The notes under the pieces are model-generated. The model made no database searches and was not told the origin of the DNA. It saw only the letters and a list, made by a program, of their open reading frames with translations. A program made the translations under genes and the position numbers. DNA of 64,000 nucleotides from Psammoneis japonica (taxonomy: Eukaryota): positions 744,001 through 808,000 of the forward strand of contig QPGO01000007.1 of assembly GCA_008632985.1 (NCBI GenBank). The letters run 5' to 3'. Of this stretch, positions 6,437-52,600 are shown piece after piece (position 1 is the stretch's first letter; the number at the start of each line of letters is the position of its first letter).

Positions 6437-6809
6437 AGAGTGCTTGTACATCAATGCTGAAATTTGTTTCGGCTAAATTCATTTCGTGGTACAGTAGTTT
6501 GTAATGTAATCATCAATTGTCTATCAATGGTCTATCGATGTCTACCTGTACCGTACTTCTACTCTAGAGTAATAGAAGGTGCTTCCGTTACCGTGCATCG
6601 GCCATTGAAAGAATCCTGATCCGTGACTGGCGAGACGTTCGTGACTGACGACTGACGATGGACACTGCGTGTATGATCTTGAGTTGAAAAGATCGCACAT
6701 GTCACAATCTTGCTATTTGGTGTTGCCTCTCGTTCTCTTTTATCTCTCATTCATTTCAGGTAGCTTACCGACCAACCGGCAGTTATAGCCTGGATCACAA
6801 AATCGTGCA

Positions 6810-17559: not shown

Positions 17560-18880
17560 TCTAGAGGTGGGGGCCCCGTTCGACAACCTTGGCATTTGCC
17601 CCTGATGTTCCCAGCAGTCGTGGGCAGATCAACAAAGTCTCTTGAATCGACTGTGCCGCAGCAAGCTGACAAAAGTCCAACTTTCAAACCAACCCCAAGC
17701 TTGCAGCAGAAAGCTGGATGAGTTCTTGGGAACCTGTGTCTGTTCTCATCATCGATCTCAGCAAGATCAAACATTTGGAGTCAACCCCAAACGACTTTCA
17801 ATCTTCAATCCATTGTCTTGCAAAATCCATTTGGTCCTTCGTTTCTGGAGAGCAGCAGCTTTCCTCACTCCAGTCAGATGTTTGAAACAATTGGTTCACT
17901 TTCCTCAAAGCTTCCCCTTCAGTGTTGCCATGCCTCACAAGATGGAAGCCCGCGGTTGTTCCTGCATGTCCAACTCCACCTTGACAATGGACACAGACTG
18001 TCTTCTTGTGTTGTTCATGCTGCACTTGGCAGTGAGCACATTTTTTGTCTCTTTGATGACCAAGTTTGAGGTGCACTGGGCAATGAGCACACTTGTCTTC
18101 CACATCCAAACAAACAAGTTTGTGGTGCAGTTGTGCCTGTTGATGCTCAAAGTTTTTGAAAATCCACTTGCACTGCTTTGTGTGAGAAAAAGTTGAAAGT
18201 TGTTGAGTGGATCACCCAACACAATCATGCCACAAAATGCAAGGCCCCACCTGGAGGAGCTGGAACACATCAAAAAGCAATGCCCCCACAATCCAAGGAG
18301 TGCTTTCCAAGCTTTTCTTGTGTTTCTCTGGAGCTGCACTCTCTGGGGCATTCACCTGCAATCAGCTTGTGCAGTTGTTGGGTCAAGGCAGCTGGCTGAG
18401 CCAAAGGCCCTTGCATTTTGGAATTTGTCACTTCTCCAACCAAGTGGGCAAATCTGTTGCATCATTGCACTCATTCACTGCAGGAGATGGAATGCAAAAA
18501 GTGGTCAAAGTGTGGCTGGGAAACAAACCAAATGTTGGTGATCACCAGCAACCAGCCCAATGTCACAGACATGCAAGCATTTGAAAAGAGAAAGGGATGC
18601 TGAAACATGTTTTGTTGCTAAAGCTGCTCTGTCAAATGGCCTCTGTCTGGAAGAAAACATTGTCTGCATGACAAGCGCGGAGCACCCGTGGTTCATGGGG
18701 TGAGAGGTGGGAGCCCTTCATGGTGCATCAGCTGGCTGCAAGTGTTTGCGTTGGCCCCAACCCTCTCATTGCTTGCCAGTGTCCACAGTTGTTCAAATCA
18801 ACAAGGGTCAACTGGTGTCTGGCTTTTGTTTTGTTTTCATGCTCCTGCTGTGCACAGTTGGCAGTGGCCTGCGGCACTCT
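17560..18880. mobile_element. Degenerate repeat-derived sequence, family unassigned
   Basis: TpA- and CpG-depleted like the adjacent transposons; no motif I can assign. Confidence 0.4.
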
Positions 18881-20260
18881 TGACAGGATTTGAACAAGAT
18901 TTTAGTTTGTCATGCACAATTGTGTGTGCTCTCAGTTCTGCATGTGACATGTGATGCAGTTTGCTTTTGAGCCACTTGGCTCACAAGAATGATGGCAGCA
19001 GTCAGATGTTGTGATGCCAGTCTTTTGGCTCCTTCAACGGTCTCTGCACAGAGACTGGTCTGCTGTTTAGACAGCTTCAAGGAGTTGTTGTTTTCTTCCA
19101 CCCATTTTCTCTTCATTTTCTGTCAGATTGACAGTCTTGCTCATTTTCATCCGCCAAGCATTCACCATCATTGTCATCAACAATTTTTCAACAATGCACA
19201 TTGTTGTGGTGGAAGCACACACCCAATTTCATCATTGCTGAACATTTGGATTGGATCAGTGCATTCTGATCTGTTCAAGGTTCCTCATCACTGGACACAT
19301 GATCCATTCAATGGATGTTTGTTTGGTCAGGAATTCCACATTCCCCAACACTTGAGGTTCTGAATTCCCTGCAGTGGGCCCTGCTCCAGGTTGACAAACA
19401 GACCAACCTGTTCTGCTCAGGCTCCACTGCTGAACTGCAGGCACTTGCACTCATGTGATGCACTCCGACTCTGGCCTTGCCACAGGCACGCCAAGTCTGC
19501 TGCTCCACATCTGCTCAGACTGCTGGTCTTCTGCAGCTCCACAAGGCCCATGAGGATGACTGTGAGAGGAAGCAGCCATGACTGCAGTCTGTGTTGGTGT
19601 TCAGGGTGCACTTTCTCATGTTTGTTTGTTCACCCTTGGCATCTGATCAGGTCATCTGACTGACACAAAATGACAAAGATTTGGGGGTCTTGTCCACCTC
19701 TGGTTGGCATGTTGGCACAGGGTTTTCAACCCACCACTCTGCTTGTGCAAGCAACCCAAAGCACCGCCAGCTGCAGGCTTGGATTTGCCAGCACAACTCT
19801 GTGGACCGGATGGGAAGCTCAGCACTTGACCACAAATGGGGCAGCACAGCCCAGCAGCTTCTGATTTGCAACACAGTTCAAGATTTCAAGTCAAGCATCA
19901 AGTCAAGTTTCAAGTCAAATCAAGCTCAGCTTCTGGCCAGTTCAAGTTCCAATGCCCTCCTCAGCTGCACCATGGTGCTGGCCAGGCAGCAACAAACCAA
20001 TGGCTCAAGACAAACATTTGTTCTGAACCAAGCTGCAGACAGTCCACCGCACTCTGCCCTCAACATTGATGGGACAGACTCATGCCAGGTCCTCTTCACA
20101 TTTGCTCTGGGACAACTCAGTGCCCTGTTTTGCAATGACTGCACCAGCCAAATGCCTCTGCCATGTGGATGCAAAGCCCTCCTGGTGGTGTTGATTGGCT
20201 TCTACACTGTTAAAGTGCATGGAGGCACTGATGTCAGCAACAACCCAATTTTGTTTGTGC

Positions 20261-20591
20261 TTGAAGAATTCACTGACTGTCATCTCAGCCCTGACTGTGC
20301 AGCATCTCTCTCCACTGCCACAGTGCCATCTGCTCCCATGGCTGGCTTGTCACCCACCAAACCACATGACCCAGTGTGTGATTTCAAACAAGGCATCAAA
20401 TGTGACCCACTTGCCTCCCCCCTTTGTTCACCCTTGAAGAATTCACTGACTGTCATCTTGGCCCTGACCGCACAGCATCTCTCTCCACTGGCACCATGCC
20501 ATCTCCTCCCATGGCTGGCTTGTCACCCCCCAAACCACATGACCCAGTGCATGACTTCAAACACAAGGCATCAAATGTGACCCACTTGCCT
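20261..20591 (+). repeat. About 174-bp tandem duplication within gag
   Basis: ttgaagaattcactgactgtcatct...aaatgtgacccacttgcc at 20261-20415 and 20435-20591. Confidence 0.85.
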
Positions 20592-21249
20592 TCATGACTC
20601 ACAAGGTCTGACAAGCAGTGGCACACATGGCACACCTCCATCATTGCACAGGCATGCTCCCAGGGGATGTTGACCACACTCTCGATTTGAAGCACAAGCC
20701 CTCTGCACCCAAAGACAAGGCATTGTCACCTGAACAACAGAAGCACATGTTTGCCATCTTTGAATGCATCTTGCAAAATGACAAAGGCAAGGCACTTGTT
20801 CATGACATGTGGCAATGCCTGAGCCATGTGCCAAAAAATCTCTGAGTGTGCCTTTGCATCCACCCGTGCATCACTTGATTCATTGACCCTTCTCACTTGC
20901 CTCACCACTGCTTGTCTTGGTGATGGCACCTGGAAGAGATCCACCCAGGCCTTCACATTTCACTGGCAAGAGGACGCACTGGGTTGCATTGGTTTGCAAT
21001 CTTGTTGGTCAGGAGGAGGTCGTGGATGAGTTTGACAGTGCCAATGTGTTGTTGATGCTTGCAGTGTCATTTTATGAGCACTGCATGTGCCTGTCAATTG
21101 ACCAAGTCCACAACTTCAGGACACCATTGATTGCATTCCACAATGTGCTCTGGCAACTGGGGAGCAGTGGAAATGCATCAGATTTGCTGCTTGTGTCTGG
21201 AGGTCAATGCACCATCTTTGAGAGACAAACAAGAATGACAATGAGGAAA

Positions 21250-22560
21250 AGGGAGTGCCTGGGATGCATCTCATGAGTGGCAGCCTTGGCATGCACCAGC
21301 CAATTTGTCTGCACAAATGTTCACCTTTGCAGTTGATGGAGGGGAATGGACTGGGGCATTCTCATCTTGGTGTCCCTTGCCCCACTTGATGGTGAGGCTG
21401 GGTGAAGAAGCAATCTCCACTGAATCTCTCTTTGACGTCAAAGTGTGCAAAATTTCGTTGATTGTGTCCCAATCAGAAGCAAGTGCATTGGCTCCATGGT
21501 GCCACAAACAAAAATCATGAGAGTCATCTGACTTGCCTTCTGGAGATGGAGTGGGCAAGGCAAGATGCAATTTCTCTAGACAAGATGCCAGAGACTTGTT
21601 GTCACAATGTGTGTCCGCTGCTTGAGTCAACTTGGCTCGACAAGATTTGATGCATTGGCAAATGAAGCAGACAATGGAGAAGATTCTGCAGGCTTCTGTT
21701 TGGTGCAAAGACAACTTCTTTCCAAATGCTGGCCCAGCACAATCCACCAGTGGAACACCTTGGAGTGCAATGGTCCATCCAAATGCAGCACCTTTGTTCA
21801 CCAACCCATCACTTCCTGCTGCAAGCTCTGAAGAAACAAGCACTGCATCAAGACAAGAGGTGACATGTGCAGGTCCAACTCTGCAAACAACTCTGATTCC
21901 CATTGTGGCAATGCCTGCAGCATGTCAAGAAATGATGCTGGGGCAGGTTGGGGTGCAGAGGTTGTCAGCGAGGTTCATGGAAGATCAAACTTCCATCTGC
22001 CATCTTCTGTTGTGGTCAGTTCAACTGGATGGGATTCATCTGATGGTGCAGGAACAGTCTCCATCTCCCCAATGGAGTCCATTCTTGTGCCGTTGACCAA
22101 GAAAATTTTCAAACCCCATGGATCCTTTGACATGCAAGCAGTCCTCTGAAGGAGAGAAATGCACCGACACTTGCACTCACATCTGGGAAGGAGAGACCAA
22201 CCATTCTCCAAGTGGCTCTTTCAATTGGTGAGTGGTTGGATGACACAGGCAAGTGCAGAGTTTCCTCCATGCTGACCAAGCTCTGGCACCCAGTTTGTGC
22301 TGTTCAATGCCATTTAATGTGCCAACACTGCTCTGAATTGAGGGATCCCCTTTGACTTTTGTTGGGTCCAAGGTGAGGCTGTCTGACAGAGTCATGTCAG
22401 AAACAGAGAGCACCTGCAAAACACAAGCAACGCCAATTGATCCACCGGATTTCTTGGTGAGTGAAGAGCTGAGACTGAAGGGCAACATCCACAATGTGCT
22501 GGTCATTGTCTTGCTGCAGAGGAAGCACTCCGTTGTGAGTCAGGTGGACTTTGCCACAGA
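21250..22560 (-). mobile_element. Non-LTR (LINE-like) retroelement fragment with RNase H-like domain, nested in the Copia
   Basis: GSDG...AAFGW...CDNKSL...SDWD...KWGKGHQD...NICADKLA matches the RNase H domain of non-LTR elements. Confidence 0.65.
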
Positions 22561-25500
22561 CTCTGTTTAAAAAAAGTGAACAGAAGCAAACCAACAGGAT
22601 TCCACATGCAGAAGCACCACATCCACGTCCCACAAGAAACTCTCACCCATGCCCAAATTCAGTTTGAATCCATGCAACTGCAACATGCAACAGTTTGTGT
22701 GATCAACATTGCACACAGAATGGCACGATCCTCTCCTGTGAGCAACATTGTGGCCTCCTGCTTTCTGTGGCGGCACAGTGCGACAGCACTTTTGCACCCA
22801 AGATGGCCTCCTGTGCTCCACGCCACACCATCTGTGCCCATGACCTGGCCCCTGATGACACTTGCAATGACGTGTTCTTTGACATTGACAGTGATGTTGA
22901 CCTCATTCCAGCTCATGCCTCTCAATCTTGCAGCCCCACTCTTGCCAAGAAACAGTGGCATTGCATCCCGCCTGATCACCAGCACTCATGGGACACCCCA
23001 CCTCAGTCCTCCAAGGCCATCATCCTTGGCTTGCACACTGCTTGCACTGGCAACTGCCATGACTTGGTGGCCATCAACCTTCATGACTTCCCTCTGGGCA
23101 GCAATGGTGACATCAACTTGTCTGCCAATGCTCATGACCTTGCATCAACTCCTGAACCTCCCAATGCTGCAAATGATGCAATGAACACTAACCCCATCCT
23201 GGCACACCTTATGAAGTGCAAGCCTCTGCCACCCGATGATCTGCAATGTCCCTTTTTGCCTGACAAACCTCCCTTGACCCACTCTGGCGAGAAACCCCCT
23301 GGCTCAAAGTCATCACCTGGTGCTGCCACTGACATCAAAATTGATGGACACACCATTGCTGTGTCAACAATCACAATGTTGTTTGCTCTGCCTTGACTCA
23401 CAACTCAACTTGCACTGATGCTCTGGTGGATCATGATGCCAATGGTGGAATTGCTGGTGATGGTTGTTCATGTCATCACATGCACTGAACAGCAGGTTGA
23501 TGTGCGCAAGGTGTTGACGACCACCAGCTTGTCAACATTTCTGTCATCACTGCTGGCAGTGTCATCCACATGCAATGTGGACCCATCATTGCCATCCTTC
23601 ACCAGTGTGCCTGCACTGGAAAGGGCAACAAGAACATGCACTCTTGTGGCCAGCTTGAGTGGCACAAGCGTGACATCAACAACCAGTCAATCAAGGTCCC
23701 CAATGGCCTGCAACACATCACCACCATTGATGGCTGCATCATTCCCATCAACATCAAAGGTGGCCTGCCACACATTGCCATGTGCGTGCACACCAATGAC
23801 AAATGGGATGATCCACCCTGTGTTGTTCTCACTGGTGATGACACCTGGGACCCATCTGTGCTCAACCACCAGTTCGCCAATGATGAAAAATGGCACAATG
23901 CCATGTCCAACCTCCAGGATGACCCCACCACCAACCTCTTTGACGAGTTTGGCAACTGTGATCACCATCATGTCATGAACAACATGATGCTTGTGGGGAC
24001 TCCATCCTCAACAATGATCACATCCTCCCAACATCCGATTTCTTCTGTGAATGCCATGAGCCCAAAGTCACCCCCAAGGATCCCAACTTTGAGTCCCTGC
24101 ACCCCTGTTTTGGTTTCCTCTCAAAGGACACAGTTCACTGCACTTTTGATTGCATGACCCAATGTGCCCACATGCCTGCATGCATGCATTTGAAAAAGGT
24201 GCACAAGTTGCCCAACCCAACTCTCAATGTTCGCCGATGCAATGAATCCATTGCCACCAATGCTGTGCACTCCAGCACTCCTGCCATTGACTCTGGATGC
24301 ATCAGCACACAACTCTTTGTTGGCACAGAATCTTTCATCACCAATGTGTGCAGCACCAAGATGGACAAGGAATTTGTCAACATGCTCAAAGACAACATTC
24401 ACAGCTGCGGTGCTCTGTCCAAGCTCATCAGCGATCATGCTCAAGTTGAGATCAGCAACAAGGTCCTTGGCATCATCAGCGCCCTCTTTGCATCTAGCTC
24501 TTTGACAGCACCAGAACTTTGCTGAACACTGCTGCCAAACCATGAAGAACATGGCCATCACCATCATGAATTGCTTTGGCTCCCCAGCATGCATCTGGCT
24601 CCTTGCTCTCTCATGTGCATGTGCTTTGTCCTGAACCACCACTCCCAAAATCAGCCCCCTCCTCCATTTTCAATGGTGGGAACCTGTGTGCCACCACCTG
24701 GATGATTCCAACTGGCCATCTGAATGCCGCGAGTTGTGTGGTTGCTCTGTTGGCATTGCCAAACACATGGGTCATCAAATGACTTTCAAGATGCTTTGTG
24801 AAGACACTCAGAAGATTCTTTGCTGGTCCATCTGTGCCACCGCCCATGACCCATCAGCTTGCAATCTGCATCTTGATCCTTCTGATTCTTGATGGGGAAT
24901 CTGCTGCACCCTTCATCAAATCTGGCCTTGACTCTGAGGGTTTGCTGGATTCACCAGATGGGAAGGATGTCTGTCAGGATGCCCAAAATGCCGGTCTTTG
25001 ACCCCAAGGACATCATTGGATGCACCTTCCTCATGAAGCCACAATGGGATGGACAGTGCCACAGAGCCCGCATTGTCAAGGCATGATTGGGAAATCAGCA
25101 ACAACCCGGAACTTGTCAAGTTCATTTGTTCAGTTGACAACAATGAGTGCAAGGAAATCTTTGCATGCAATGACATCATCCATCACATGATGGAGCAAGA
25201 AGATGAGGACACCACTGTCTGGAAGTTCCAACACATCATCTCACATGAAGGACCATTGAGACCTCACAATCCCTCTTGGAAAGGCTCAAGCTACAATGCC
25301 ATGCTTGAATGGCAGAGTGGGGAGATCACATCTGACCTTCTTGCCATCATGGCCAAGGATGAGGATGACCCTGTCACTTGTGCCATCTGTGCATGCAAGC
25401 ACAGTCTGCTTGAAACTGATGGATGGAAATGCTTCCGCATCACAGCTCTGTGCCAGAAGAAGCTGTTCTGCAAGGCCAATCAAACCAAGCTGCAATCTTC

Positions 25501-28098
25501 TTTTTGTGCTGCGCCACACTGCAAGCATGGGCATGAAGTGGTCTGGGACTGCAAGCATGCCTTGGCCCTTGACAAGCGCAATGGCAACCTCAAGTGGGGA
25601 AGTGCAACAGATCTTGAGATGACTCAGCTTGGTGAGTGTGAGGTCTTCTTCCATGATTGTGGACACTGCAAGGATTCCAGCACCCCAGCAGGACACAAAA
25701 AGATTTGGCTGCACCTTGTCTGTGATGTCAAACATGACAGTGGGCACAAAGCACAACTTGTTGCCAATGGACACCTCACGGACACACCCATCAACAGTGT
25801 CCACTCTGGAGCAACAGTGCCCCTCCATGGCCTCCAACTGATGGTCTTTTCTCAGCCAAACTCAATGAGCTGGAGACATGGGTGACCAACATTGGCAATG
25901 CCCACCATGAAGCCATGACCAAGGAGAAACCGCACATTGTTGCAGGTCCCAAATTTGAAGAATTGGAAGGACACATCCTTGTCATCCACAAGGCTCTGCA
26001 TGGCTTCCACAGCTCTGGCAGCCTCCAATGGCTCAAACATTTTGCCAGTTGTCTGCAAGCTGAAGGATTCTTCCTGTGCCATGCCCAACCTGACATCTGG
26101 TGGCTGTGCCAGAATGGTGACCATTGCAAACATGTGGCAGTGCACGTGGATGACATGGCCTTTGCCATGAAAGATCCTCAGGCCTTTGTTGACACTCTCA
26201 CTGAGAAACACAAGTTCAAACTCAAAGGCACTGGACCATTGGAACTTCACCTTTGTTGCAACTTCTCACATGATTCCAGTGGCACACTGTGCCTTGCTCC
26301 TTGCAACTGCATTGAGAACATGGTCAAACTTGCACATGCCACTTTGGGGAGAATCCTTGCAGTGACGTGCTGTCCCCTCTTGAAAAGGGAGACCACCCTG
26401 AGCTCAACACCTTCAAACTGCTCCTGATGGCATCCATCTATTTCAGTTCTTGGTTGGTTCCCTGCAATGAGCTGCATCACTTGGTCACATTGACACCACT
26501 GCAGCCATCATGTCTCTCTCTCTGGCTTCTGCATGGCACCTTGTCAAGGCCACCTGGATCATGCCAAACATGTCTGTGGACACTTGTCCAAGATGCAACA
26601 TGGTGCCCTGTGTGTGCACACCAAGGAACCCAGCTGTTTGGACCTCCCCAAGCCTGTGTGTGGCTGGGCTCAAACCATGTGTGATGATGTGGAAGAGCTG
26701 CTTCCCGAAGACATGCCTGAGACTCTTGGCAAGTTTGTCACCACAACCCATTTTGTTGATGCAAACTTGTTCCATTGCATGCTCACTGGATGCTCCATCA
26801 TGGGCACCACTCATTTCCTCAACAAGTTTCTGGCTAAGAAACAGTCAAGACTGCAACTTGTGGATCTGAGTTCATTGCCACCAGGATGTGTGTTGAACAG
26901 ATCATTGATCTGTGCATCACGTTGTCTCATCTCGGCATCCCGACTCGTGACACCCGTTGCATGCTCAGGGACAGCAAGTCAGTTGTGGATGGTGCTGCTG
27001 TCCCACACTCCAAGTCACACAAACAACACACCACCCTCTTGTTCCATTGTGTGTTGAGGCAATTGCCTCTGGTTTCCTTGAGTTTCACTTCATTGAAGGT
27101 TCCCGCAACCCCGCTGACATTCTCTCAGCAAACAAAGGGGGTTGCTCCCAGGTTTGGAGCCTCCTCCATCCTCTCATGTTTTGGAACTTTGATCCTGGGG
27201 CCTTCAGCCAATCTAACTTGAAACCCATCTCTGTGGACTCCTCAAGCAAACTGGAAAGTGACTGGATTTAAACAAGATTTTAGTTCATCACACACATGAT
27301 TGTGTGTGCTCTTGGTTCAGCATGTGATGTGCGCACGATGCAGTTTGCTTTCAAGACACTCAGCTCACAAGAACAATGACAGCAACACCAACATCATGAC
27401 ACCAGTCTTTTGGCTCCTGCGATGGTTTCTGCATGGAGACTCATCTGCCATTTAGACAGCAGTGAGGAGTTGTTGTTTTCTTCCACCCGCTTTCTCTTCA
27501 TTTTCCATCATCTCTGCTCTCCACTTGCCCCCCTCTCCCAATGGAGACATTCATGTGACAAGACTGCAGTCAGCAACAGTGGTGGCAGCCAGCAGCAGCA
27601 GCAGTGGAAAGGAGGATGAGAGACATTGACACAACACTTGCTGTGGGGGGTGGTCAGCCCTCTTGTTGGCCTTGCCGCCGCTGGCCGCTGTTGTCACCAA
27701 CTTTTGGCTGGCCCCATCGTCTCTCTCCTGGCGGGCGGTTGTGTCTCCTCATTTTCTCATTCATCAGTGTGAAGGTTCACATCTGCAAGAAAAGGTGAGT
27801 AAACAAGTCTCAGGCAACACAGCTGAGGAAGTGATGGAAAGTGTTGTTGTGCGGCGATCAGATCGATTGAGATTGTCGATCGGCGGCTTCACTCGTGTCA
27901 TCGCTCATCTGTCATCTGCGCGCGCGTCAGGCCGCGAGGCACCGCGGCCGGGTACTCGTACCGTACCGTACATACGAGCATCGGGTGCAAAGGGATGATG
28001 AGGTTCGGCTTTCGCACTTCTACTCCTTATTCTCACTCATCACTCAAGTCACTCAGGCTTCTCCTTCCACAGGCTCAGTGCTCCTTCCAAACGTCATC

Positions 28099-29899: not shown

Positions 29900-31330
29900 C
29901 TGCATGACTGCACTGACAGGCTGGAGAGGAACCCCACTACAAACTGTCTTAACTACAAGATGGGTCCTGTGCCAACAGCAGCAGTGCTCCACACCCATCC
30001 GGTGGAAAATGGAGTTAGATCAATGGCAACTTGAGCAAGTCCTTTGTTGTTGTTTGGGCTGCAGGCATCAATGAACCAAATGCTGTCAATGGCCACGCTG
30101 GCCTGCATGGCCAGCATGGTTGGCATTTTGGCAAATGACAAATTGCTTGCCTGATCAATCCTCACAATGTGGTCTGCTGGCCATTTTCATGAATCACATG
30201 TGCATCCCCAGCTCCATGATCCAAGAAAGCTGCGGCAGTTCTAAGAACAAAGAACTCAACAAACTTGCCATTTTCATCACTGATGTCTCCCCCAGAGTTG
30301 GGAAAGATTTCCAAAATGATGACATTTTGGGAGGAGATCATCTGCTGATTGGAGAACTGCTTTGTGAGGTGGAAGGCAGCTCTGATGAAGAACAACAACT
30401 TGGTGAGGTGGAAGGTGCACTGCTCTGTGATGGAAAAGGCAGCACTGGCAGAGAAATGCTTGTTGAGGTGGAAGGGACAGTGCTTGGTGGTTTGGAAGGC
30501 TGCTCTGTCACAGTGCTGCTTAAAGAGGCAGAGTGCAGCTCTCATGGAAGACTGCTCTAAGAGGCAGAAGGTAGCTCCAGTCGACCGCTGCTTGGACAAG
30601 CAGAAAGAAGCTCTGATGGAGCACTGCTGGGAAAGGTGGAAGGCACTTTTGATGGACCAGTGCTTGGCAATGTGCTGGGATGATTCAGGGACAGAGAGGA
30701 CAAGGGCTGTTCTGACAAGACTTCATCATTGAGACTGCAGCTGAGGGCAGTTTGCACTCCAATGCCCAGTGCCCAGCAACTCTGGCACTGCAGATGACTC
30801 TTTTGAGCAGAAGAAGACATGCCGGTCAGCAAGCATGGAACTGGAAATGAAGGCCAGTGAAAGCAAGGCAGTTCCTCCAGCAATTTCTTGACTGGCATAG
30901 GTTGTCAGGTCCCACTCCACAAGCTGTTCATCTTCCATGGCCAAAATGGACACCACAGCCAAGGGAGTCATCCCATGTGCAGGCTTTGTCAACCAGGTCA
31001 TGAGCATGCTGATCTCATTCCACTCATCCTTCCACACAGCATCCAAGACCTCTTCTTTGAGGTCCACAGCAGCACCCAAGGAAACAATTGCATGTCAGAC
31101 TTTCAGCTCCACTCTTAAGAATCTTGACACCCAAAGTTGGTGGTTGTTTCTGAAGCTCCACCATGAGTGCAAGTGTCTGCTGCAGAGTGCAAGGTTGTTT
31201 GCCAGAGGAATGTCCACGAGAAGCTCAATCTTTGCTTGAAGCACCTTGTCTCAACATTTCTGAAAACTGATTTTGGTGAGCAGCCATTTCAAACATCCCA
31301 AATTGGCTGAAATCAACACAGCGACGCCTT
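29900..31330. mobile_element. Degenerate TpA/CpG-depleted repeat-derived block, unassigned
   Basis: Same compositional signature as the transposons; short repeated GEVEG-like units at 30350-30680. Confidence 0.4.
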
Positions 31331-31592
31331 CCAATTTGACGCTTCTTGTAATCTACGTGCAAAGATGATCTTGGTGAAGCTCCGCATCAGTGTTGAGAAC
31401 AACTAATTGCTGAAAGAGGTGGCAGCAGTGCATGTCTTACCTCTGCTGAAGAGCCTTTATAAAACCTAGAGTAAAATCATAATAACTTGAAAGTTTACTG
31501 ATACAAACCACTAATAGCTGGCTTAATGGATTGATACAGACACATCAACATGCATGAGTGATCTCCCGCAAGACCTTCATTCTACAAAAAGT

Positions 31593-34451: not shown

Positions 34452-35251
34452 TTGGGAGCAACCCCAATGCTTGCTGAGAATGTCAGCAGGGTTGTGGGAG
34501 CCTTCGATGAAGTGGAGCTCAAGGCAACCAGAGGCAATTGCCTCACGCACACGGTGGAACGACAGTGCGGTGTGTCGCTTGTGTAACTTGGAGTGCGGGA
34601 TGGTGGCACTGTCTACAACCGACTTGTTGTCACCGAACATGTAACTGACATTGCGGATCGGGATGCCAAGGCAGCGCAGGGTGATGCGCAGGTCGACAAT
34701 CTGTTTGACACAAGTCCTTGCTGCAACAAATTCAGACCCGCAGGTCGCAGTCTCCAGGGTGGCTTGCTTCTTGGAGAACCAATCAGCCGGGAATTTGTTG
34801 AGGAAGTGGAGCATTCCCATGACAGAGCATCCAGTGAGCATGCAATGGTGCAAGTTTGCATCGACGTAGTGGGTGGCAGTGACGAACTTGCCAAGGGGCG
34901 GTGGAGCGTCCTTCGGGATCATCTCTTCTGCTTCGCCGCACACGGAATGCATCCATTCATGGGCCGGAGCAGGGAGATCTGAATGGTCGGGCTCTTCCGT
35001 ACAAATGCGGAGAGCGCCGTGTCGCATCTTGGAGAGGTGCCCACAGACGCGTTTGGCACGATCCAAGTGGCCTTGACGGGGTGCAGCTCGGAAGCTAGAG
35101 AGTGACATGGCGGCCGTGGCAATGTCAATTCGACCAAGAGACACTGCCCATTGGAGTGAACCAACAAGGGACTGGAACTTGTGAATGCCATCGGGCTCCA
35201 GCAGTTCGGAAGTGTCCAGTTCGGGGTGGTCGCCCTTCTCCAGAGGTGACA
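34452..35251 (-). mobile_element. Inverted Copia RT-end/RNase H fragment, paralogous to 42240-43040
   Basis: LSPLEKGDHPELD...WFSKKQATLETATCGSEF...NPADILSKHW on the minus strand. Confidence 0.92.
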
Positions 35252-38200
35252 GATTAACAGTCTTGCTCATTGTCAACCCATTGAGCAACCGCCATCGTCG
35301 TCGTTGATTTGCCGACGACGCCACTTCAATTCTGCATGGACCTCCGTACATGTTCCACATGCATCGGCAAGTTTACGCGCATCCAACACCAGGGCATCGG
35401 CAGGAAGTTAACGTCACGGTCATGGCCTCCTCACCGCTGGACATCTGGATTGATTGTGCCACCTTTGATCGCTGAAGACATGCATTCAACGGTCATGTCC
35501 AAGTCCATCCTTGATCCTCATCCCTTGACATGCCCATTCATCGGTTAACGGTCAAGAACCCTGCATGTTCAAGGATCTCTGTCGCTGAAGACACATGTGT
35601 GCACATGTCTTCACGGCCAAGGACTTGAACCCACTCTTTGGACTGCGGCTTTGCCACCACTCTACAAGCACGCCGAGTCTGTTGCACCTGATCTACCCCG
35701 GACTGCTGGTGCTCTGCAGTTCCACTGGGTCCACGAGGACGACTGTGAGAGCAAGCAGCCGTGATTGCAGCCTACGTTGGGGCGAGGGTGTTTTCCCGCG
35801 TTTGTTCGTTCGTCCACAGTGCCTGGCGCCTGCGTCAACTGGCCAGCCTGATCGGAAAATCCAACCGACATAAAATGAGAACGGTTTGGGGGTCTTGTCC
35901 ACCTCCAGTCAGCTTGCCTGCGGGGGTTTGCAACCCGCTGCTCCGCTCGCAAGCAACCCAAAGCGCCACTGGCTGCGGGTTCGAACGTGCCGGCACAACT
36001 CTAAGGACCGGACAGGAAGTTTAGCACTTGACAACGAACGGGACAGCAAAGCCCAGCGACTTCTGATTTTGGGGCAGTTCAAGATTTCAAGTCAAGTCCA
36101 TTTCAAGTCAAGTCTGTTCTCACCCAAGCTTCAAGTCTGTCTTCGCTTCCCAACAAGAATTGATTGTCCTGACACCACTTTTGTCTACCATGGTTCTCAC
36201 TTGTCAGCAACAAACCGATGGTTTTGAGCACGTTGTTGGAACCGTGCTTGCCCAAGGTGCTGGGAGTCCTCTTCGTTTGGCTTTGGCCCAAGACGGCATG
36301 GACTCGCATCAAGAACTGTTCACGTTCATGCCGTCCCAAATCGACTCGCTTGAGTGCGACAACGGCACCAATGTGATCCCTTTGCCCCGCGGTTGTGAGA
36401 ACATGTTGGCAGCCCCAGTTGGTCTGTACATTGTCAAAGCACACAAAGGTCTTGACGTTGCCAATGACTCCTCGTTGTTCACGCATGACGAGTTCCTTGC
36501 CCACCGCCTCAGCCCCGACTGCATGTCTTCTGTGTCCATCGGCAGCTCACCCCTCGCACCTCCGCATGTCACCAACCCGACCAAGGCACGCGACCCGGTG
36601 CGAGACTTCAAGCGAGGCATCAAGCATGACCCCACCGCTTTCACGGCTCTCAAATCCGACAAGCAGTGGCACACTTGGCACACCTCACTTGTGGCACAAG
36701 CCCGTGCCCCCAAGACGTCGAGTGCATCCTAGACTCGTCGTACAAACCGACCAGCCCCAAAGACAAACTGCTCTTTGCTGAACAGCAAAAGTGCATGTTT
36801 GCCGTCTTCGAACGCATCCTTCTCACCGACAAGGGCAAGGCTCTCATTCGCGAAAATGTGGGGTCTTCTGACACCCAGACCGTCTGCCGCGCCTTGTCTG
36901 AGCATGCGCTCGCCTCCACCCGTGCATCTGTCGAGTCCCCCACCTTGCTGGCGTGCCTCACCACCGCACGTCTTGGTGATGGCACTTGGAAAGGTCCGAC
37001 CCACGGGTTCATCCTTCATTGGCAAGATCAGTTGCGCAAGTGCGAGGCACTCATCCCGGCCAGTGACCACTTCTCTGAAGGACAGAAGTGCATCATGCTC
37101 GAGAATGCCGCACACCCTGTCGAGGAACTCCGTGCTGTCAAGAACCAAGCTGATCAGCATCGCACGCAGAGTGGCAAGAGCCTCACATACGATCAACACT
37201 GTGGCTTGCTGATGTGTTTTCATCCCAGGTGAGAAACGCGCATGCGGAGGTGAGACATTTCGTCTGTCCCTTTTCCATTGCCATGCTTTTTGTGCGAGCA
37301 AATCTGACTGGACTTTCCCCCGATTTTTCATTTCTTCTTTCTGCAGACATGTTTATTTTGAAAAGCCAGCCGTCATTCTCATTGGTTGAAGGGTGCGCAC
37401 AAGAAAAGCGCTTTCTCGAAAGCGGCATTTTTTGGAGTGAAACTGACAGCTGTCTGCTCGTTGTTGTTATTCTGGTGCATTTGAGAGACTGTTCCACTGT
37501 TTCTTTCACCGAATCTGACCACTTTGAAAGAATGCACGCATTGTTCATTGTGTGAAGAGCTCACACCAAAAAAGAACGGCGTTCTAACTCTGTCATTTGC
37601 ACAAGAAAAATCGGGGGAACTGACTTCGCACGTGATTTTTTTGCGCGATCGGCCATTTCAAAGATCGACTGATTTGTCGACCTGTGTGGGACACTTGAGT
37701 GAACAAAACAATGGGATTGAAATGGCAGCGTCAAAGTTCAATGTGTGTCTAGTCATTGTGTGATTTGACATGCTCAAGCAGAGTTAAAGATGAAATGTTG
37801 ACAAAATTTCACCGCTCAAAATGACTGGTTCTATCTTAGAATAAAATAAAATGGCTGCAACACTGAGATGTCGCTAATGGCATTGTTCTACTTTACAACA
37901 ATGAAACTGTCACACTTGCATCTGAGATTCTTTATCCTCACACACCCTCAAAACCGAACACATGACGATTCTCTTGTCAGCAGCGAAATCTGATGTTGTC
38001 GCGCGACCCAAAAGCGTCGTCCACAACGACTCAAAGTGTGGACGATACATTGTGAGAATCACAGCAACGTGTCATAGAAACATTCTTCGTTGTCAGTGTC
38101 CGGTGTCAAGTAGATGGAGCAGCGCGTTGATGAGAATCCTACTTCGCAAGCTGAGGAAGAGAGAAAGAGGCATCAAAAATGTCATGAGTCAAAAGGCCAT

Positions 38201-41200
38201 CCACAAGGCACAACAAAAAACAAAGATCAAATTTTCAACCACATCATCGCACCGAGCGTTGTCTTGTTGACCTGTCTCGGCATTCTTACCTTCTCAGTCA
38301 CAACATCCGTTGGTGCAAGAATGGACGAGTTCATGGCGACGGCATGGTGCCATTTTCGGTTTGCGCGAATTGTGGTTTGTGGTTCGAGACATGGAAAAAC
38401 ACATTTTTGCTGTCATGGAGCTCGTTTTTTACTAAGATTTTTGGTGCTAAATGCACGTCTCATGTAGAAACACGTAGAAAACCTCGTGATGTGACCAAAA
38501 GTTTCTCACCCAGGATGAAAACACATCTGCTCCTCTCCGCGGCAGCTCAATGCGACAGTGCGTTTCAACCCAAGACGACACCTCGAGCTCCCCGACGCGC
38601 CATGTGCGCACACGACGTCTGCTCCGAGGAACCGTCCAATGATGTGTTCTGTGACATTGACAGTGACATTGACGTCCTTCAGGCCAATGCTGCCTGCACC
38701 CGTGGTCCCAGCCTCACCGGTGACCAATGGAAACGTCTCCCTCCCGACCACCAACGGATTTGGGATTCGTTGCCCCATTCCTCCAAGGCGATCATCCTTG
38801 AGCATTCTTGCCCGCCTCCCCGCAACCCGCAAGACAGCAACTGCCATGAGTCCATTGCGGCCAACCTTCACGACCACCGCCTTGGGAGTGACGGTGATGT
38901 CAACTTGTCCAACACGACTCCTGCTGACTCTGGTGACTCCACTCCAAATGTGGGTGCCACTTTGGACAATCCCATCCTGGCGCACCTCACCAAGCGCAAG
39001 CCACTGCCACCCGGTGATCTGCAACGTCTGTTGTCTCCTAACCAAGCCCCCAATGCTGGTCGACCGGGGCCATCCGCCGCTCCCTCTACCCCGCCAGCTT
39101 CTGCCGATGACACAGAACTTGGCGGCTGCACTTGCCATCGCGTTGATGACCACAATGTCATTTGCTCTGCCTCTGCTCATTGCTCCACACGCACTGGTGC
39201 TCTGGTCGATCGTGGGGCCAACGGCGGCATTGCTGGCGACGACGTTCGCATCATTGCACGCACCTCTCGCCAAGTCGACGTTCAGGGCATTGATGACCAT
39301 CAATTGGTGGACATCCCTGTTGTCACCGCTGGTGCCGTCATTGAGACCCAGTGTGGTCCCGTCATCGCCATCCTCCATCAGCACGCATGCACGGGCAAGG
39401 GCAAGACCATCCATTCCTGCGGCCAGCTTGAATGGTGCAAACAGGATGTCAACGATCGCTCTGTCAAGGTGCCCAACGGCTTGCAATGCATTGCCACTCC
39501 TGGTGGCTGTGTCATCCCCATTGACATCAAGGGCGGCCTGCCTTGTGTTGCCATGCGACCTTGCACTAATGCCGAGTGGGACACCCTGCCCCATGTCATC
39601 CTCACCGGTGATGACACATGGGATCCTTCCGTCCTCGATCACTCTGTCACTGACGATGACCAGTGGTGCGACGCGATCTCTGACCCACAGGACGGTCCCA
39701 CTGCCAACCTGTTTGACGGGTGCGGCAACTGCCGTCATCGTGTCATTGTCAACGAGACCATCATGTCCACTTCCTTGTCTGCCGATCACGCGTCCACCCT
39801 CGATGATCACCTCATTCTGAACAACGACGTGTTCTGCGAGTGTCATCTACATGCGATTGACCCCAAGGACGACGACGTTCCGCCCCTGGAGCGCACTGTG
39901 CAGCCCAAGGACCCCCCCTTCGAGTCTCTTCGGCCTTGCTTTGGCTTCCCACCTGCCGATGCGGTCCGTCGTACTTTTGACTGCACCACGCAGTGCGCCC
40001 GCATGCCAGCCGGCACACACCTTGGGAAGGCCTGCAAATCACCCAACCCCGCCCTTAACGCACACCGCCGCAACGAGCCTGTCGCCACTGACACCGTTTG
40101 TGCCGACACCCCGGCCGTCGACTCTGGTTGCACCAGCGCCCAACTGTTTGTTGGCACCGAGTCTGCCGTCACTGACGTCTGCGGCACCAAGACGGACAAA
40201 GAGTTTGTCAACACACTCGAGGATCAGATCCGTGAGCGTGGTGCCCCATCCAAACTCATTGGCGACCGTGCTCAAGTTGAGATCAGCAACAAAGTGCTCG
40301 GGATCCTACGAGCCCTCTTCATCTCCAGCTGGCAAAGTGAGCCTCACCAGCAACACCAAAACTTTGCCGAGCGTCGACACCAGACCGTGAAGCGCATGGC
40401 GAACACTGTCATGGATCGTTTTGGTTCGCCCACCCACACATGGCTGCTGGCGCTCATGTGCGTGTGCTTCACACTCAACCATGCAGCATCCCCACGTCTC
40501 CACTGGCACACGCCCCTCGAGACTCTCACTGGCTCCACCCCGGACATCAGCCCATTGCTTCGCTTTCACTGGTGGGAACCCGTGTGCTTCCACCTTGATG
40601 ACTCCGATTGGCCGTCCGAATCCCGTGAGTTGCGTGGATGCTTTGTTGGCATTGCTGAGCACGTCGGCCACCAGATGACCTTCAAGATTCTCTCTGACGA
40701 GACTCAGAAGATCCTCCACTGGTCCAACGTACGCTCCGCCACCACCGATCCTGCCGTTCGAAACCTGCGTCTTGATCCTCCTGATGGGGAGCCACCTGAA
40801 CCCATCATCAAATCTCGCCATGATGACAACCCCGTCGATTCTCCTGATGGGGAGATCAGGACACCCAAGATGCCAGTTTTCGATCCGCAAGACATCATCA
40901 GACGCACCTTCTTCATGCAGCCACAAGAGGACGGACAATGCCACAGAGCTTGCATCGTCAAGGCCGTCGAAGACCACGAATGGAAAGTGAACGGCAATCC
41001 CGAGCTTGCTAAGTTCATCTGCTCTGTCAACAATGACGAACACGAGGAAGTCCTTGCCTGCAACGACATCATGAATCACATTGAGCAAGAAGACGAAGAC
41101 ACTGCTGTTTGGAAATTCCGACGCATCGTGTCACACGAAGGACCTCTGAAGCCTCATGACCCAACCTGGAAAGGCTCAAGCTACAACATCATGCTTGAAT

Positions 41201-52300: not shown

Positions 52301-52600
52301 GAGATGATCTTTGACAATGAATTTGTGAAAGAACACATCACAAAATCACATGAAAATTTTCCAATCAACAATCAGGTGTTGTGTTGGGGGTGCACTTTCA
52401 ACAATGAATGTGCAAACAAATTCAACAATGAAATGTGCAAACAAATAGACAACCCAGTGCTCCAACAACACACATGGGGGTTTTATTTGTGTGGCACGCC
52501 GCACAAATTTGAGCAAATCTCGTGGCTCCACTGATGCGTTGGACTGTCCACGTTGCGGCAGCACTTGAAGTTGTGAGCCACGAGATTGAGCCACAGCAAG
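43376..52600. mobile_element. Degenerate repeat block of unassigned family with internal dispersed duplications
   Basis: Related units at about 43420-44190, 44195-44830 and 46350-46770, and at about 45360-45680 and 50915-51220; near absence of TpA and CpG. Confidence 0.6.
47220..47432. repeat. About 70-bp inverted repeat / foldback (MITE-like)
   Basis: ttgcatggaagcagcaccagg...gcagaaatgccaaaaaagtct at 47242-47289 pairs with agacttttttggcatttctgc...cctggtgctgcttccatgcaa at 47361-47408. Confidence 0.8.

What the first reader, a model, noticed from the sequence alone, without database searches (positions are those of the whole stretch)
17600..27890. Surviving TpA sites reveal a context preference (TAY attacked, YTAR spared)
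Seen: the few TpA left in this roughly 10-kb block are mostly TTAG, TTAA, CTAG or CTAA (about 18903, 19068, 20211, 21576, 22316, 22568, 24496, 26835, 27215, 27269, 27281, 27453). There are a few CTAC/TTAT/CTAT, and I saw essentially no GTAC or ATAT. YTAR is the only context in which both strands read TA-purine. Inference: the preferred target is 5'-TAY. Established: TadA acts on UACG in tRNA and TadA-derived DNA editors prefer TA, while Pol eta favours WA. The context could therefore discriminate between mechanisms.
Basis: partly seen in the sequence, partly recalled or inferred. Interest (0 to 1): 0.8.

Follow-up and report, generated by a model that had tools for sequence, protein, structure and literature searches.

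The report
Flank-dependent TpA erasure in diatom transposons
In a diatom genome, dead jumping genes have lost nearly all their T-A steps through A-to-G changes, and the few that survive sit next to particular letters, which gives a fingerprint of the still unknown process that does it.

Summary
Window 17600-27890 holds 20 TpA in 10,291 bases: 14 YTAR, 5 YTAY, 1 RTAR and 0 RTAY. Unmutated relatives carry about 53 TpA per kb.

The block is a dead Ty1/Copia retrotransposon, with short flanks, in a pennate diatom. TpA and CpG were converted to TpG/CpA after integration, on both strands.

The YTAR excess recurs in all five depleted blocks of the window: 73 of 155 TpA against 25 expected (p=5e-27). 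It also recurs in two of three TpA-depleted Copia contigs from metagenomes. It survives normalisation to each block's own TpG+CpA pool, and two family alignments support it.

Loss rises with the base 3' of the A (A&lt;G&lt;C&lt;T), and an A at +2 protects as strongly.

The direction of change at ancestral Tyr codons fits "TAY preferred" in the window (YTAY gives TGY 36, CAY 9). It does not fit in the metagenome family (10:15).

The same TpA-to-TpG/CpA hypermutation was reported in 2026 for Bigelowiella natans. My searches found no report for diatoms, and the main text of that preprint holds no flank analysis.

The parts
17560..27799 (.). Block A: zone depleted of TpA and CpG (the finding's block). 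TpA observed/expected 0.03, CpG 0.14, TpG/CpA about 1.9.
18881..19120 (+). 5' LTR of the Copia element in block A
   Evidence: blastn against 27259-27505, 78.5% over 247; alignment A1
27259..27505 (+). 3' LTR of the same element. Of 253 aligned bases 198 are identical. 42 of the 55 differences are transitions, and 13 dinucleotides read TG in one LTR and CA in the other.
19121..27258 (+). Internal part of the dead Ty1/Copia element. It has gag-pol remnants in several frames and an RVT_2 match at 25738-26427.
   Evidence: Pfam; tblastn of 120 relatives
18901..18905 (+). Surviving TTTAG. It is homologous to 27279-27283 and to the 3' end of copy C, so it is a true survivor and not a new mutation.
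   Evidence: invariant columns in alignment A1
19066..19070 (+). Second surviving TTTAG. It is homologous to 27451-27455 and is kept in copy C as well.
29900..31500 (.). Block B: short zone depleted of TpA and CpG. 21 TpA remain: 8 YTAR, 0 RTAY.
34452..43500 (+). Block C: a paralogous Copia copy about 71% identical to A. TpA is depleted (8.5 per kb) but CpG is kept (observed/expected 0.84). It has an open 1461-codon frame at 38188-42573 (P0001). 34452-35252 is an inverted duplicate of 42238-43040.
43501..52500 (.). Block D: 9 kb depleted of TpA and CpG, of unknown origin. It has no Copia homology, and none of the 27 frames scanned reaches a Pfam cut-off (one weak DUF6535 match, E=0.02). 28 TpA remain: 14 YTAR, 1 RTAY.
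60000..64000 (-). Block E: another Copia remnant (RVT_2 at 61172-62053, minus strand), depleted of TpA and CpG. 16 TpA remain: 11 YTAR, 2 RTAY. It runs off the window.

Best explanation
Block A is a dead Ty1/Copia LTR retrotransposon, plus 1.3 kb and 0.3 kb of flank, in a pennate diatom genome.

Shown: after integration its duplex DNA was hit site by site, on either strand, by transitions that turn TpA into TpG or CpA. About 96% of TpA are gone. More slowly, or separately, CpG also turned into TpG/CpA.

Shown: the TpA process has a flank preference. A TpA is lost more slowly when the A is followed by a purine (loss order of the +1 base: A < G < C < T) and by an A at +2. A TpA is palindromic, so it survives only if both of its A's sit in the slow context. 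That is why the survivors are YTAR, and above all TTTAAA- or TTTAGA-like sites.

Inferred: the agent is an enzyme aimed at transposon or silent chromatin. Most likely it is a DNA adenine deaminase (A to hypoxanthine, read as G) that needs T at -1. It would be the same kind of process as the TpA hypermutation of integrated viruses seen in mutation-accumulation lines of Bigelowiella natans. The CpG loss is most simply ordinary decay of methylated CpG; this is inferred and not tested.
For: What it is. RVT_2 matches. LTR pair at 18881-19120 and 27259-27505. Diatom host: the plastid ATP synthase gamma is 84-91% identical to Nitzschia, Bacillariaceae and Cyclophora proteins.

Mutational origin. P0001 has 0.41% Tyr, 4.2% Cys and 4.9% His. 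Its 120 relatives have 3.0-5.0% Tyr and on average about 1% Cys and 3.5% His. At ancestral Tyr codons in the window copies, 61 now read TGY, 30 CAY, 11 TAY and 17 something else. In 46 unmutated loci 1,278 of 1,575 such codons still read TAY.

Post-integration, DNA level, both strands. The two LTRs of A are identical at only 198 of 253 positions. 42 of the 55 differences are transitions, and there are 13 TG-versus-CA discordant dinucleotides. A against C shows 135 TG/CA discordant sites in 5,607 aligned bases. L034 against L035 (94.5% identical) shows 87 of 99 substitutions as transitions, 25 TA-versus-TG/CA sites and 20 discordant sites, and 8 of 15 shared Tyr sites are discordant. The strand hit at neighbouring sites is random (runs test z=0.63, 137 sites).

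Specificity. Only TpA, and in A, D and E also CpG, fall. ApA/TpT do not.

Flank rule.
- Five of five blocks show a YTAR excess: 73/70/12 against 25.4/76.7/52.9 expected, p=5e-27.
- It holds against the blocks' own TG+CA pool (p=9e-13).
- Additive half-site model: +1 C +0.74, G +0.27, T +1.41 relative to A, p=2e-14. The +2 term adds LRT 68.
- Family alignments: TpA kept in at least one copy versus both copies mutated is YTAR 13:19, mixed 12:56, RTAY 3:39 for A/C (p=0.0013), and 16:3, 12:10, 2:7 for L034/L035 (p=0.006).
- Direction at Tyr codons in the window: YTAY 36:9 (p=7e-5), RTAY 25:21. By preceding base: T 12:1, C 24:8, G 19:12, A 6:9.
- At the same Tyr site with a different preceding base in A and C: Y-preceded 15:1, R-preceded 9:8 (p=0.017).
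- TTTAG survivors are kept at homologous places in both LTRs and in copy C.

Precedent. bioRxiv 10.64898/2026.01.13.699255 (abstract, Results and Discussion read): 230 of 231 de novo mutations in two viral inserts are A>G or T>C, all of them on TpA.
Against: The direction test fails outside the window. L034 gives YTAY 1:8 and RTAY 7:2. L035 gives 5:4 and 5:2. L023 gives 4:3 and 7:3. Pooled this is 10:15 against 19:7, Fisher p=0.025 in the opposite sense. It is heterogeneous with the window (p=0.0013), and all data pooled are null (p=0.60).

In the A/C alignment the Y..Y class has 41 discordant sites, more than a 4:1 strand preference would give.

The rates come from survivors and from pairs of copies, not from observed mutations, and the model form (decay or steady state) is assumed.

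The +2 effect is as large as the +1 effect, so 'TAY' is an incomplete description.

No enzyme was seen, because no genome is held. Adenine- and thymine-directed chemistry give the same sites.

The contigs laid on block C list 429 variable places over the 20-kb stretch laid. This suggests that many TpA losses are shared by much of that family, so part of the loss in C may be inherited and not independent. This rests on 40 shown rows and on depth-weighted shares.

Whether the CpG loss belongs to the same machinery is open.
Confidence: 0.6

Rival explanations
1. The process and the flank rule are the same, but the chemistry acts on thymine and not adenine. Examples would be oxidation to 5-hydroxymethyluracil or another T modification that pairs with G, or a biased T:A repair. 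The rule then reads 5'-R-T-A (A>G>C>T at -1 of the T), and no adenine deaminase is involved.
For: Every site-level result is symmetric under complementation, so nothing here separates A>G on one strand from T>C on the other. The hits are strand-random, as expected for action on duplex DNA. From recall, not from any call: 5-hydroxymethyluracil in dinoflagellate DNA is reported to be enriched at TpA.
Against: No diatom thymine-modifying pathway aimed at TpA is known to me. The only published account of this signature proposes adenine deamination, also without proof.
Confidence: 0.2
2. The context of the remaining TpA does not reflect the editing agent. It comes from where new TpA arise by ordinary mutation, or from selection keeping a few functional motifs such as stop codons or LTR signals.
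For: YTAR contains TAA and TAG. Two survivors are conserved LTR motifs. Blocks A, D and E are old enough for new mutations to have arisen.
Against: Normalising to the xTGy+xCAy pool, which is the main source of new TpA, leaves the effect in place (p=9e-13). The excess is seen in coding, non-coding and unidentified blocks. It also appears in the young, partly depleted copies C, L034 and L035. The pair tests and the Tyr direction test in the window do not depend on survivors being old. One or two stop codons per element cannot give 73 sites.
Confidence: 0.08
3. The TpA-poor sequence is an evolved property of a still-amplifying element lineage, for instance escape from a TpA-reading defence. It would be inherited by the copies and not inflicted on each of them.
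For: Summed contig depth over block C is 10,000-177,000, against 53-94 over block D and the genic flank. Many positions look uniform among the laid contigs. The 1461-codon frame is open.
Against: Most conserved Tyr codons of the polyprotein now read Cys or His in copy C (29 Cys, 10 His, 8 Tyr and 6 other of 53), which is unlikely in an active element. TpA to TpG/CpA cannot create an in-frame stop, so an open frame is expected anyway. The LTRs of A diverged after insertion. A/C and L034/L035 are hit independently. An unrelated block (D) and the flanks are depleted too. The tool warns that summed depth is not a copy number.
Confidence: 0.06
4. A-to-I editing of the retrotransposon's RNA (ADAR-like, or ADAT-type mRNA editing as in fungi) before reverse transcription.
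For: U at -1 is the ADAR and ADAT preference (Discussion of the preprint).
Against: The two LTRs, identical at integration, now differ by TG/CA discordances. Both strands are hit equally and without runs. A block with no retroelement homology (D) and the flanks are hit as well. The ADAR hot spot is UAG (passage), whereas TAG is among the spared contexts here. From recall: ADAR is confined to animals.
Confidence: 0.03
5. Error-prone repair synthesis by a Pol eta-like polymerase, which favours WA motifs.
Against: ApA/TpT are not depleted: observed/expected is 1.09-1.27 for ApA and 0.99-1.20 for TpT in the blocks, against 0.94 and 0.98 in relatives. The loss is confined to TpA and is near-complete, which a polymerase error spectrum does not explain.
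Confidence: 0.03

Closest known systems
TpA hypermutation of integrated NCLDV and virophage DNA in Bigelowiella natans (Mettrop et al., bioRxiv 10.64898/2026.01.13.699255; abstract, Results and Discussion read)
   Same: The changes are T/A to C/G transitions on TpA giving TpG or CpA, on either strand. They are confined to foreign or mobile DNA in blocks. The long-term signature is TpA depletion with CpA+TpG enrichment. Reverse-transcriptase and DDE domains are enriched among TpA-depleted genes.
   Different: The host here is a diatom (stramenopile), not a chlorarachniophyte. The targets are LTR retrotransposons plus an unidentified block. Erasure is near-complete (96% against about 45% for their NCLDV). 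CpG loss accompanies it in four of five blocks. No de novo events were observed here. The flank rule has no counterpart in the preprint's main text: 0 hits for 'context', 'flanking' and 'trinucleotide'.
Repeat-induced point mutation (RIP) of fungi
   Same: Transition hypermutation inactivates transposons in resident DNA, works in blocks and has a dinucleotide preference.
   Different: RIP is C>T at CpA and creates TpA. Here TpA is destroyed and GC rises. A 934-base, 95% identical duplicate of a host gene in this window is untouched, so duplication alone does not seem to trigger the process.
TadA/ADAT tRNA adenosine deaminases and TadA-derived adenine base editors
   Same: The target A is preceded by U/T. 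The native site reads U-A-C, and a TadA-8e variant (A48E) edits A in 'YAC' (passage in PMC13109818). A pyrimidine at +1 is favoured here too.
   Different: Here T beats C at +1, and +2 also matters (an A there protects). Natural TadA/ADAT act on tRNA loops. No natural enzyme of this family is known to erase TpA in duplex genomic DNA. No candidate gene could be examined.
ADAR editing of double-stranded RNA
   Same: A to G with U preferred at -1.
   Different: The ADAR hot spot is UAG, while TAG is relatively spared here. The process here acts on integrated DNA.
Decay of methylated CpG in silenced transposons
   Same: CpG goes to TpG/CpA in blocks A, B, D and E. C-to-A comparison: 158 CG>TG and 112 CG>CA.
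   Different: It does not touch TpA. Copy C shows that the two losses are separable: TpA observed/expected 0.16 with CpG 0.84.

Membership tests
TpA-to-TpG/CpA hypermutation of foreign DNA (B. natans type) | Changes are almost only A>G and T>C | tested here: met
   L034 against L035: 87 of 99 substitutions are transitions, 65 of them at TpA-derived sites. LTR pair: 42 of 55 differences are transitions. Tyr codons changed to TGY or CAY.
TpA-to-TpG/CpA hypermutation of foreign DNA (B. natans type) | Confined to the TpA dinucleotide, giving TpG or CpA depending on the strand | tested here: met
   Only TpA falls and only TpG/CpA rise in copy C. ApA, ApT and the others are unchanged. In A, D and E, CpG falls as well.
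TpA-to-TpG/CpA hypermutation of foreign DNA (B. natans type) | Localised to mobile or foreign DNA, with neighbouring genes spared | tested here: met
   There are five blocks with edges sharper than 200-500 bases. Three are Copia. Genic DNA has TpA observed/expected 0.4-0.8. Caveat: two non-transposon-like domain matches lie inside depleted zones.
TpA-to-TpG/CpA hypermutation of foreign DNA (B. natans type) | Occurs de novo in resident DNA at a rate orders of magnitude above background | not testable with these tools
   Only indirect evidence: LTR divergence after insertion and independent hits in close copies. No mutation-accumulation data exist for this organism. The runs found are contigs of one sample.
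Fungal RIP | C>T at CpA (or CpG), leaving TpA-rich, AT-rich DNA | tested here: not met
   TpA is depleted 20-30 fold. GC is 0.49-0.58 in the blocks.
Fungal RIP | Triggered by sequence duplication | tested here: inconclusive
   The host-gene duplicate 5504-6437 / 31592-32525 (95% identical) has 27 and 28 TpA, and its differences fall at third codon positions. Block D is at single-copy depth yet depleted. Selection on the gene copies could mask any hits.
ADAR-type RNA editing | 3' neighbour G preferred (UAG hot spot); acts on RNA | tested here: not met
   The +1 order is T>C>G>A. The LTRs diverged after integration. The hot spot is taken from a passage in PMC10661471.
TadA/ADAT-like deaminase as the agent | Target A with U/T at -1 and C at +1 (native U-A-C; 'YAC' in the TadA-8e A48E variant) | tested here: inconclusive
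   -1 T is absolute. At +1, C is favoured over purines but T is favoured more. +2 matters too. The direction test is heterogeneous.
TadA/ADAT-like deaminase as the agent | A deaminase gene with the HxE...PCxxC motif whose product acts on DNA | not testable with these tools
   No genome is held for this window.
Pol eta WA-motif mutagenesis | A>G at both TpA and ApA | tested here: not met
   ApA observed/expected is 1.09-1.27 in the blocks against 0.94 in relatives.
Ty1/Copia LTR retrotransposon (identity of block A) | RVT_2 reverse transcriptase, polyprotein homology and flanking direct LTRs | tested here: met
   RVT_2 match with E=1.6e-5, below Pfam's cut-off in A but 5e-25 in the paralog C. 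tblastn of 120 Copia polyproteins matches at 20.0-21.0 kb and 22.5-27.5 kb. LTRs found.

The most novel reading that the evidence does not exclude
Diatoms possess a TpA-specific DNA-editing defence that erases TpA from transposons in resident duplex DNA. It is the same kind of system as in the chlorarachniophyte B. natans, so it would be widespread or ancient in the SAR supergroup. Its flank fingerprint (T at -1; +1 T>C>G>A; not A at +2; strand-random, non-processive) is the signature of a natural enzyme that deaminates adenine in double-stranded DNA. No such natural activity has been characterised.
Probability: 0.35. Interest if true: 0.85.

Novelty: new member of a known kind. Interest (0 to 1): 0.62.

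Why it matters
A TpA-directed hypermutation of foreign DNA has so far been reported once, in 2026, for a single rhizarian alga. The enzyme was not identified, and the main text gives no flank analysis.

This window shows the same signature carried to near-completion in the retrotransposons of a diatom, a different supergroup branch and an ecologically dominant one. It is also present in environmental contigs.

The flank rule is a concrete, testable fingerprint: loss order TAT > TAC > TAG > TAA, with protection by A at +2. It can be checked against the published de novo mutations. It can be used to screen candidate deaminases in vitro. It can also be used to recognise the process in other genomes.

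If the agent is a natural deaminase of adenine in duplex DNA, it would also interest the base-editing field.

For annotation there is a practical warning. Hypermutated elements keep long open frames, because the process never creates stop codons, and they lose their tyrosines, so they look like odd but intact genes.

Tried and rejected
- Whole genome: none is held, so I could not do a genome-wide NTAN census or a search for candidate deaminases.
- Earlier findings of this scan: nothing on this genome or this sequence, and the word hits were unrelated phage cases.
- Estimating strand direction from tetramer excess over a relatives' baseline: too noisy. It gave negative excesses and shares outside 0-1, so I dropped it. 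Only its survival fractions by class were of use: pooled YTAR 32 of 72, YTAY 31 of 151, RTAR 9 of 56, RTAY 19 of 151.
- Estimator q=2a/(2a+b) on L034/L035: counts too small (YTAR 0.22, mixed 0.40, RTAY 0). I replaced it with the retained-versus-discordant table.
- Sequencing runs: only four runs of one sample hold the stretch, all kept as contigs, and no RNA holder is listed. This gives no evidence on expression and no independent strain in which to see new mutations.
- Pfam on 27 frames of block D: nothing reaches a curated cut-off; one frame gives a weak DUF6535 match (E=0.02, 15.2 bits).
- Literature: five searches found no paper on TpA loss in diatom transposons. Maumus et al. 2009 (PMC2806351) has no mention of hypermutation, dinucleotides or deamination (term search only). 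Gaudelli et al. 2017 is not held. 'YAC' in PMC9399415 means yeast artificial chromosome. One search and one term look-up failed on syntax.
- Strand-coordinated (processive) editing: rejected by the runs tests.
- Repeat-triggered action on the duplicated host gene: not seen.

Full report
**1. The observation**

Window 17600-27890 (10,291 bases) contains 20 TpA and 93 CpG. Two more YTAR sites were missed (18619 and 23189, both CTAA). The remaining six are CTAC x2, TTAT x2, CTAT, and one GTAA at 27800 on the block edge. There is no RTAY at all.

The block is one of five in the window in which TpA is almost absent and TpG/CpA are doubled:
- A, 17560-27799
- B, 29900-31500
- C, 34452-43500
- D, 43501-52500
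- E, 60000-64000

In A, B, D and E, CpG is also nearly gone. In C, CpG is kept (observed/expected 0.84). No other dinucleotide is shifted much. ApA and TpT are, if anything, slightly raised. Unmutated relatives carry 52.6 TpA per kb. Blocks A, C, D and E carry 2.0, 8.5, 3.1 and 4.0 per kb.

**2. What the block is**

The host is a pennate diatom. An intronless plastid ATP synthase gamma gene in the window is 84-91% identical to proteins named for Nitzschia, Bacillariaceae and Cyclophora. Neighbouring genes are a cyclin, ferredoxin-NADP reductase-like genes, an HD-domain phosphohydrolase and others.

Block A is a dead Ty1/Copia element:
- It has an RVT_2 match.
- tblastn of 120 Copia polyproteins matches at 20.0-21.0 kb and 22.5-27.5 kb.
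- Its LTRs lie at 18881-19120 and 27259-27505.

Block C is a paralog, 71% identical over 5,607 aligned bases, with a 1461-codon open frame (P0001). Block E is a third Copia remnant on the minus strand. Block D has no recognisable homology.

**3. The depletion is mutational, post-integration and at DNA level**

- P0001 has 0.41% Tyr, 4.2% Cys and 4.9% His. All 120 relatives have 3.0-5.0% Tyr, and on average about 1% Cys and 3.5% His.
- At codons where at least 60% of at least 20 relatives have Tyr, the window copies (excluding the inverted duplicate in C) now read TGY 61, CAY 30, TAY 11 and other 17.
- In 46 unmutated metagenome loci the same test gives TAY at 1,278 of 1,575 codons.
- The two LTRs of element A, identical at integration, are now identical at 198 of 253 positions. 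Of the 55 differences 42 are transitions. Thirteen dinucleotides read TG in one LTR and CA in the other. Copy C shows TA or CG at several of those places.
- A against C shows 135 TG/CA discordant sites. This is about what full independence predicts for roughly 5% ancestral TpA. It also shows 270 sites where C's CpG is TpG or CpA in A.
- The strand hit at successive sites is random (runs test z=0.63 over 137 sites). This argues against processive single-strand events and against RNA editing.
- TpA to TpG/CpA can never create an in-frame stop. The long open frame of copy C is therefore expected and is not evidence of function.

**4. The context effect**

Baselines:
- Against 42 unmutated Copia relatives (9,136 TpA; YTAR 16.4%, mixed 49.5%, RTAY 34.1%), the five blocks hold 73 YTAR, 70 mixed and 12 RTAY of 155. 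The expected counts are 25.4, 76.7 and 52.9 (chi-square 121, p=5e-27).
- Each block is individually significant: A 15 of 20, B 8 of 21, C 25 of 70, D 14 of 28, E 11 of 16.
- The window's own genic DNA gives the same baseline.
- Normalised to each context's own xTGy+xCAy pool, which is both the product pool and the main source of new TpA, heterogeneity remains (p=9e-13). TTAA is 28 against 10.2 expected, ATAC/GTAT 3 against 18.2, and ATAT 0 against 8.4.

Model:
- An additive half-site Poisson model fits well. Relative to A at +1, the extra log-loss is G +0.27±0.14, C +0.74±0.15 and T +1.41±0.21 (likelihood ratio 66.9, p=2e-14).
- A plain Y/R term gives 54.0 of that. The four-base model is better (p=0.0015).
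- Adding +2 improves the fit as much again (likelihood ratio 67.7). Any base other than A at +2 adds about 1.0.
- Survivor half-sites have A at +2 in 46% of cases, against 24% in the pool.

The spared site is therefore TA followed by a purine and then A, on both strands.

Two TTTAG survivors stand at homologous positions in both LTRs of A and in copy C. They are true survivors and not regained sites.

**5. Family alignments**

The count is TpA kept in at least one copy versus both copies mutated discordantly.
- A/C: YTAR 13:19, mixed 12:56, RTAY 3:39 (p=0.0013).
- An independent pair from metagenomes, L034/L035, is 94.5% identical with no gaps. 87 of its 99 substitutions are transitions, with 25 TA-versus-TG/CA sites and 20 TG/CA discordant sites. 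It gives 16:3, 12:10 and 2:7 (p=0.006).
- Of 49 related metagenome loci, three (L035, L034, L023) are TpA-depleted with CpG kept (observed/expected TpA 0.13, 0.27, 0.31). Their survivors are YTAR in 6 of 13, 13 of 26 and 12 of 49 (p=0.012, 8e-5, 0.095).

**6. Direction of change**

This is the only test that separates a +1 effect from a -2 effect.

At an ancestral Tyr codon x|TAY, a hit on the top-strand A gives TGY and a hit on the bottom-strand A gives CAY. The bottom-strand A has the complement of x as its 3' neighbour.

In the window:
- YTAY gives TG 36 and CA 9 (p=7e-5). RTAY gives 25:21. Fisher p=0.014.
- By preceding base: T 12:1, C 24:8, G 19:12, A 6:9. This is the order found from the survivors.
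- At Tyr sites shared by A and C where the preceding base differs in class, the Y-preceded copy shows 15:1 and the R-preceded copy 9:8 (p=0.017).
- The roughly 1:1 ratio at RTAY excludes a simple sense-strand bias.

Against this:
- The three metagenome contigs give YTAY 10:15 and RTAY 19:7 (p=0.025, opposite sense). L034 alone gives 1:8 and 7:2.
- L034 and L035 share ancestry. Counting their concordant sites once gives 5:8 by my hand count.
- The two data sets are heterogeneous (p=0.0013), and the pooled contrast is null (p=0.60).
- The 41 discordant Y..Y sites in A/C also exceed what a 4:1 preference predicts.

I therefore treat the flank dependence of survival as established. The strand-direction argument is supportive for this genome but not general.

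**7. Mechanism**

Shown: a TpA-specific, strand-symmetric, non-processive transition process acts on integrated DNA. It is confined to blocks and has a 3'-flank dependence.

Inferred: it is enzymatic adenine deamination directed at transposons or silent chromatin.
- The -1 T requirement and the pyrimidine preference at +1 resemble the U-A-C site of TadA/ADAT and the 'YAC' preference of a TadA-8e variant, A48E (passage, PMC13109818).
- The ADAR hot spot UAG (passage, PMC10661471) is the opposite of what is seen.
- Pol eta is excluded because ApA is intact.
- A thymine-directed chemistry at R-T-A is formally indistinguishable.
- The CpG loss is most simply decay of methylated CpG. Copy C shows that it is separable from, and slower than, the TpA loss.

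**8. Comparison with the literature**

The same signature was reported in a 2026 preprint on Bigelowiella natans. In mutation-accumulation lines, 230 of 231 mutations in two integrated viral regions are A>G or T>C, all on TpA. Transposon domains are enriched among TpA-depleted genes (abstract, Results and Discussion read).

Its main text has no occurrence of 'context', 'flanking', 'trinucleotide' or 'CpG'.

Five full-text searches and a term search of the main diatom retrotransposon paper found nothing on this in diatoms.

I file the finding as a new member of a known, very recently described kind, with a new and testable flank fingerprint.

**9. Open points**

- The contigs of the one sample that holds the stretch pile up on block C at a summed depth of 10,000-177,000, against 53-94 on block D and the genic flank. 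Three tiny runs cover only block C. The family is therefore probably very abundant, although the tool warns that this is not a copy number.
- Among the 40 difference rows shown (of 429), 15 are places where the window copy has TpG or CpA and most other contigs have CpG, and one more is the reverse. Twelve rows (six sites) are TG/CA discordances. Four are places where other contigs still have TpA.
- Many TpA losses thus look shared across the family. Part of the loss in C may therefore predate its amplification. I could not resolve this without the genome.

Noticed in passing
window 34452-43500 against 17560-27799: TpA loss and CpG loss are separable. Copy C has lost 84% of its TpA but keeps its CpG (observed/expected 0.84). 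Its paralog A has lost both. 270 CpG of C read TpG or CpA in A. At 43500 CpG drops from 0.78 to 0.26 within one 500-base bin.
   Followed up: partly
window 34452-43789: Contigs of the only sample that holds the stretch pile up here at a summed depth of 10,000-177,000, against 53-94 on block D and the genic flank. Three tiny runs cover only this element. The family is probably very abundant. Many positions look uniform among those contigs, so part of the TpA loss may be shared by descent. Unexplained.
   Followed up: partly
window 17801-18211 (-) and 30729-31094 (-): Two matches to non-transposon domains lie inside depleted zones. One is a PTP-SAK dual-specificity phosphatase domain (E=1.8e-7, above the Pfam cut-off) in the 1.3 kb upstream of the 5' LTR. 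The other is a CBM96 carbohydrate-binding module (E=8.5e-8) in block B. Either the process spreads into flanking or host-like genes, or these are captured or foreign genes.
   Followed up: no
window 5504-6437 and 31592-32525: An inverted duplicate of a ferredoxin-NADP reductase-like gene, 934 bases long and 95% identical. Its 47 differences fall mostly at third codon positions, and it has 27 and 28 TpA. It is not hypermutated.
   Followed up: yes
window 33754-35252 and 42238-43040: Copy C lacks a normal 5' LTR. 34452-35252 is an inverted copy (95-97%) of 42238-43040, directly after a 698-base run of N. Contigs from the runs instead join 43401 to 35250. This may be a rearrangement or an assembly artefact.
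   Followed up: no
window 38188-42573 (+): A 1461-codon open frame persists in a copy where most conserved Tyr codons now read Cys or His. TpA to TpG/CpA never creates an in-frame stop, so such frames will be called as genes even though they are probably dead.
   Followed up: yes
window 43501-52500: Block D is 9 kb, at single-copy contig depth, and depleted of both TpA and CpG. It has internal repeats (43.4-43.9 kb against 46.3-46.8 kb). It shows no Copia homology, and none of the 27 frames scanned reaches a Pfam cut-off. Its origin is unknown.
   Followed up: partly
L034, L035, L023 (metagenome contigs): Three of 49 related Copia loci from metagenomes are TpA-depleted with CpG kept. L034 and L035 are 94.5% identical yet differ mainly by independent TpA hits. 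Seven other loci (L005, L027, L032, L045-L048) show CpG depletion only.
   Followed up: partly
window 17600-27890: Of the 93 surviving CpG, 28 are in CCGC/GCGG. The CpG loss may have a context preference of its own. Some of these sit in the CpG-rich edge after 27850.
   Followed up: no
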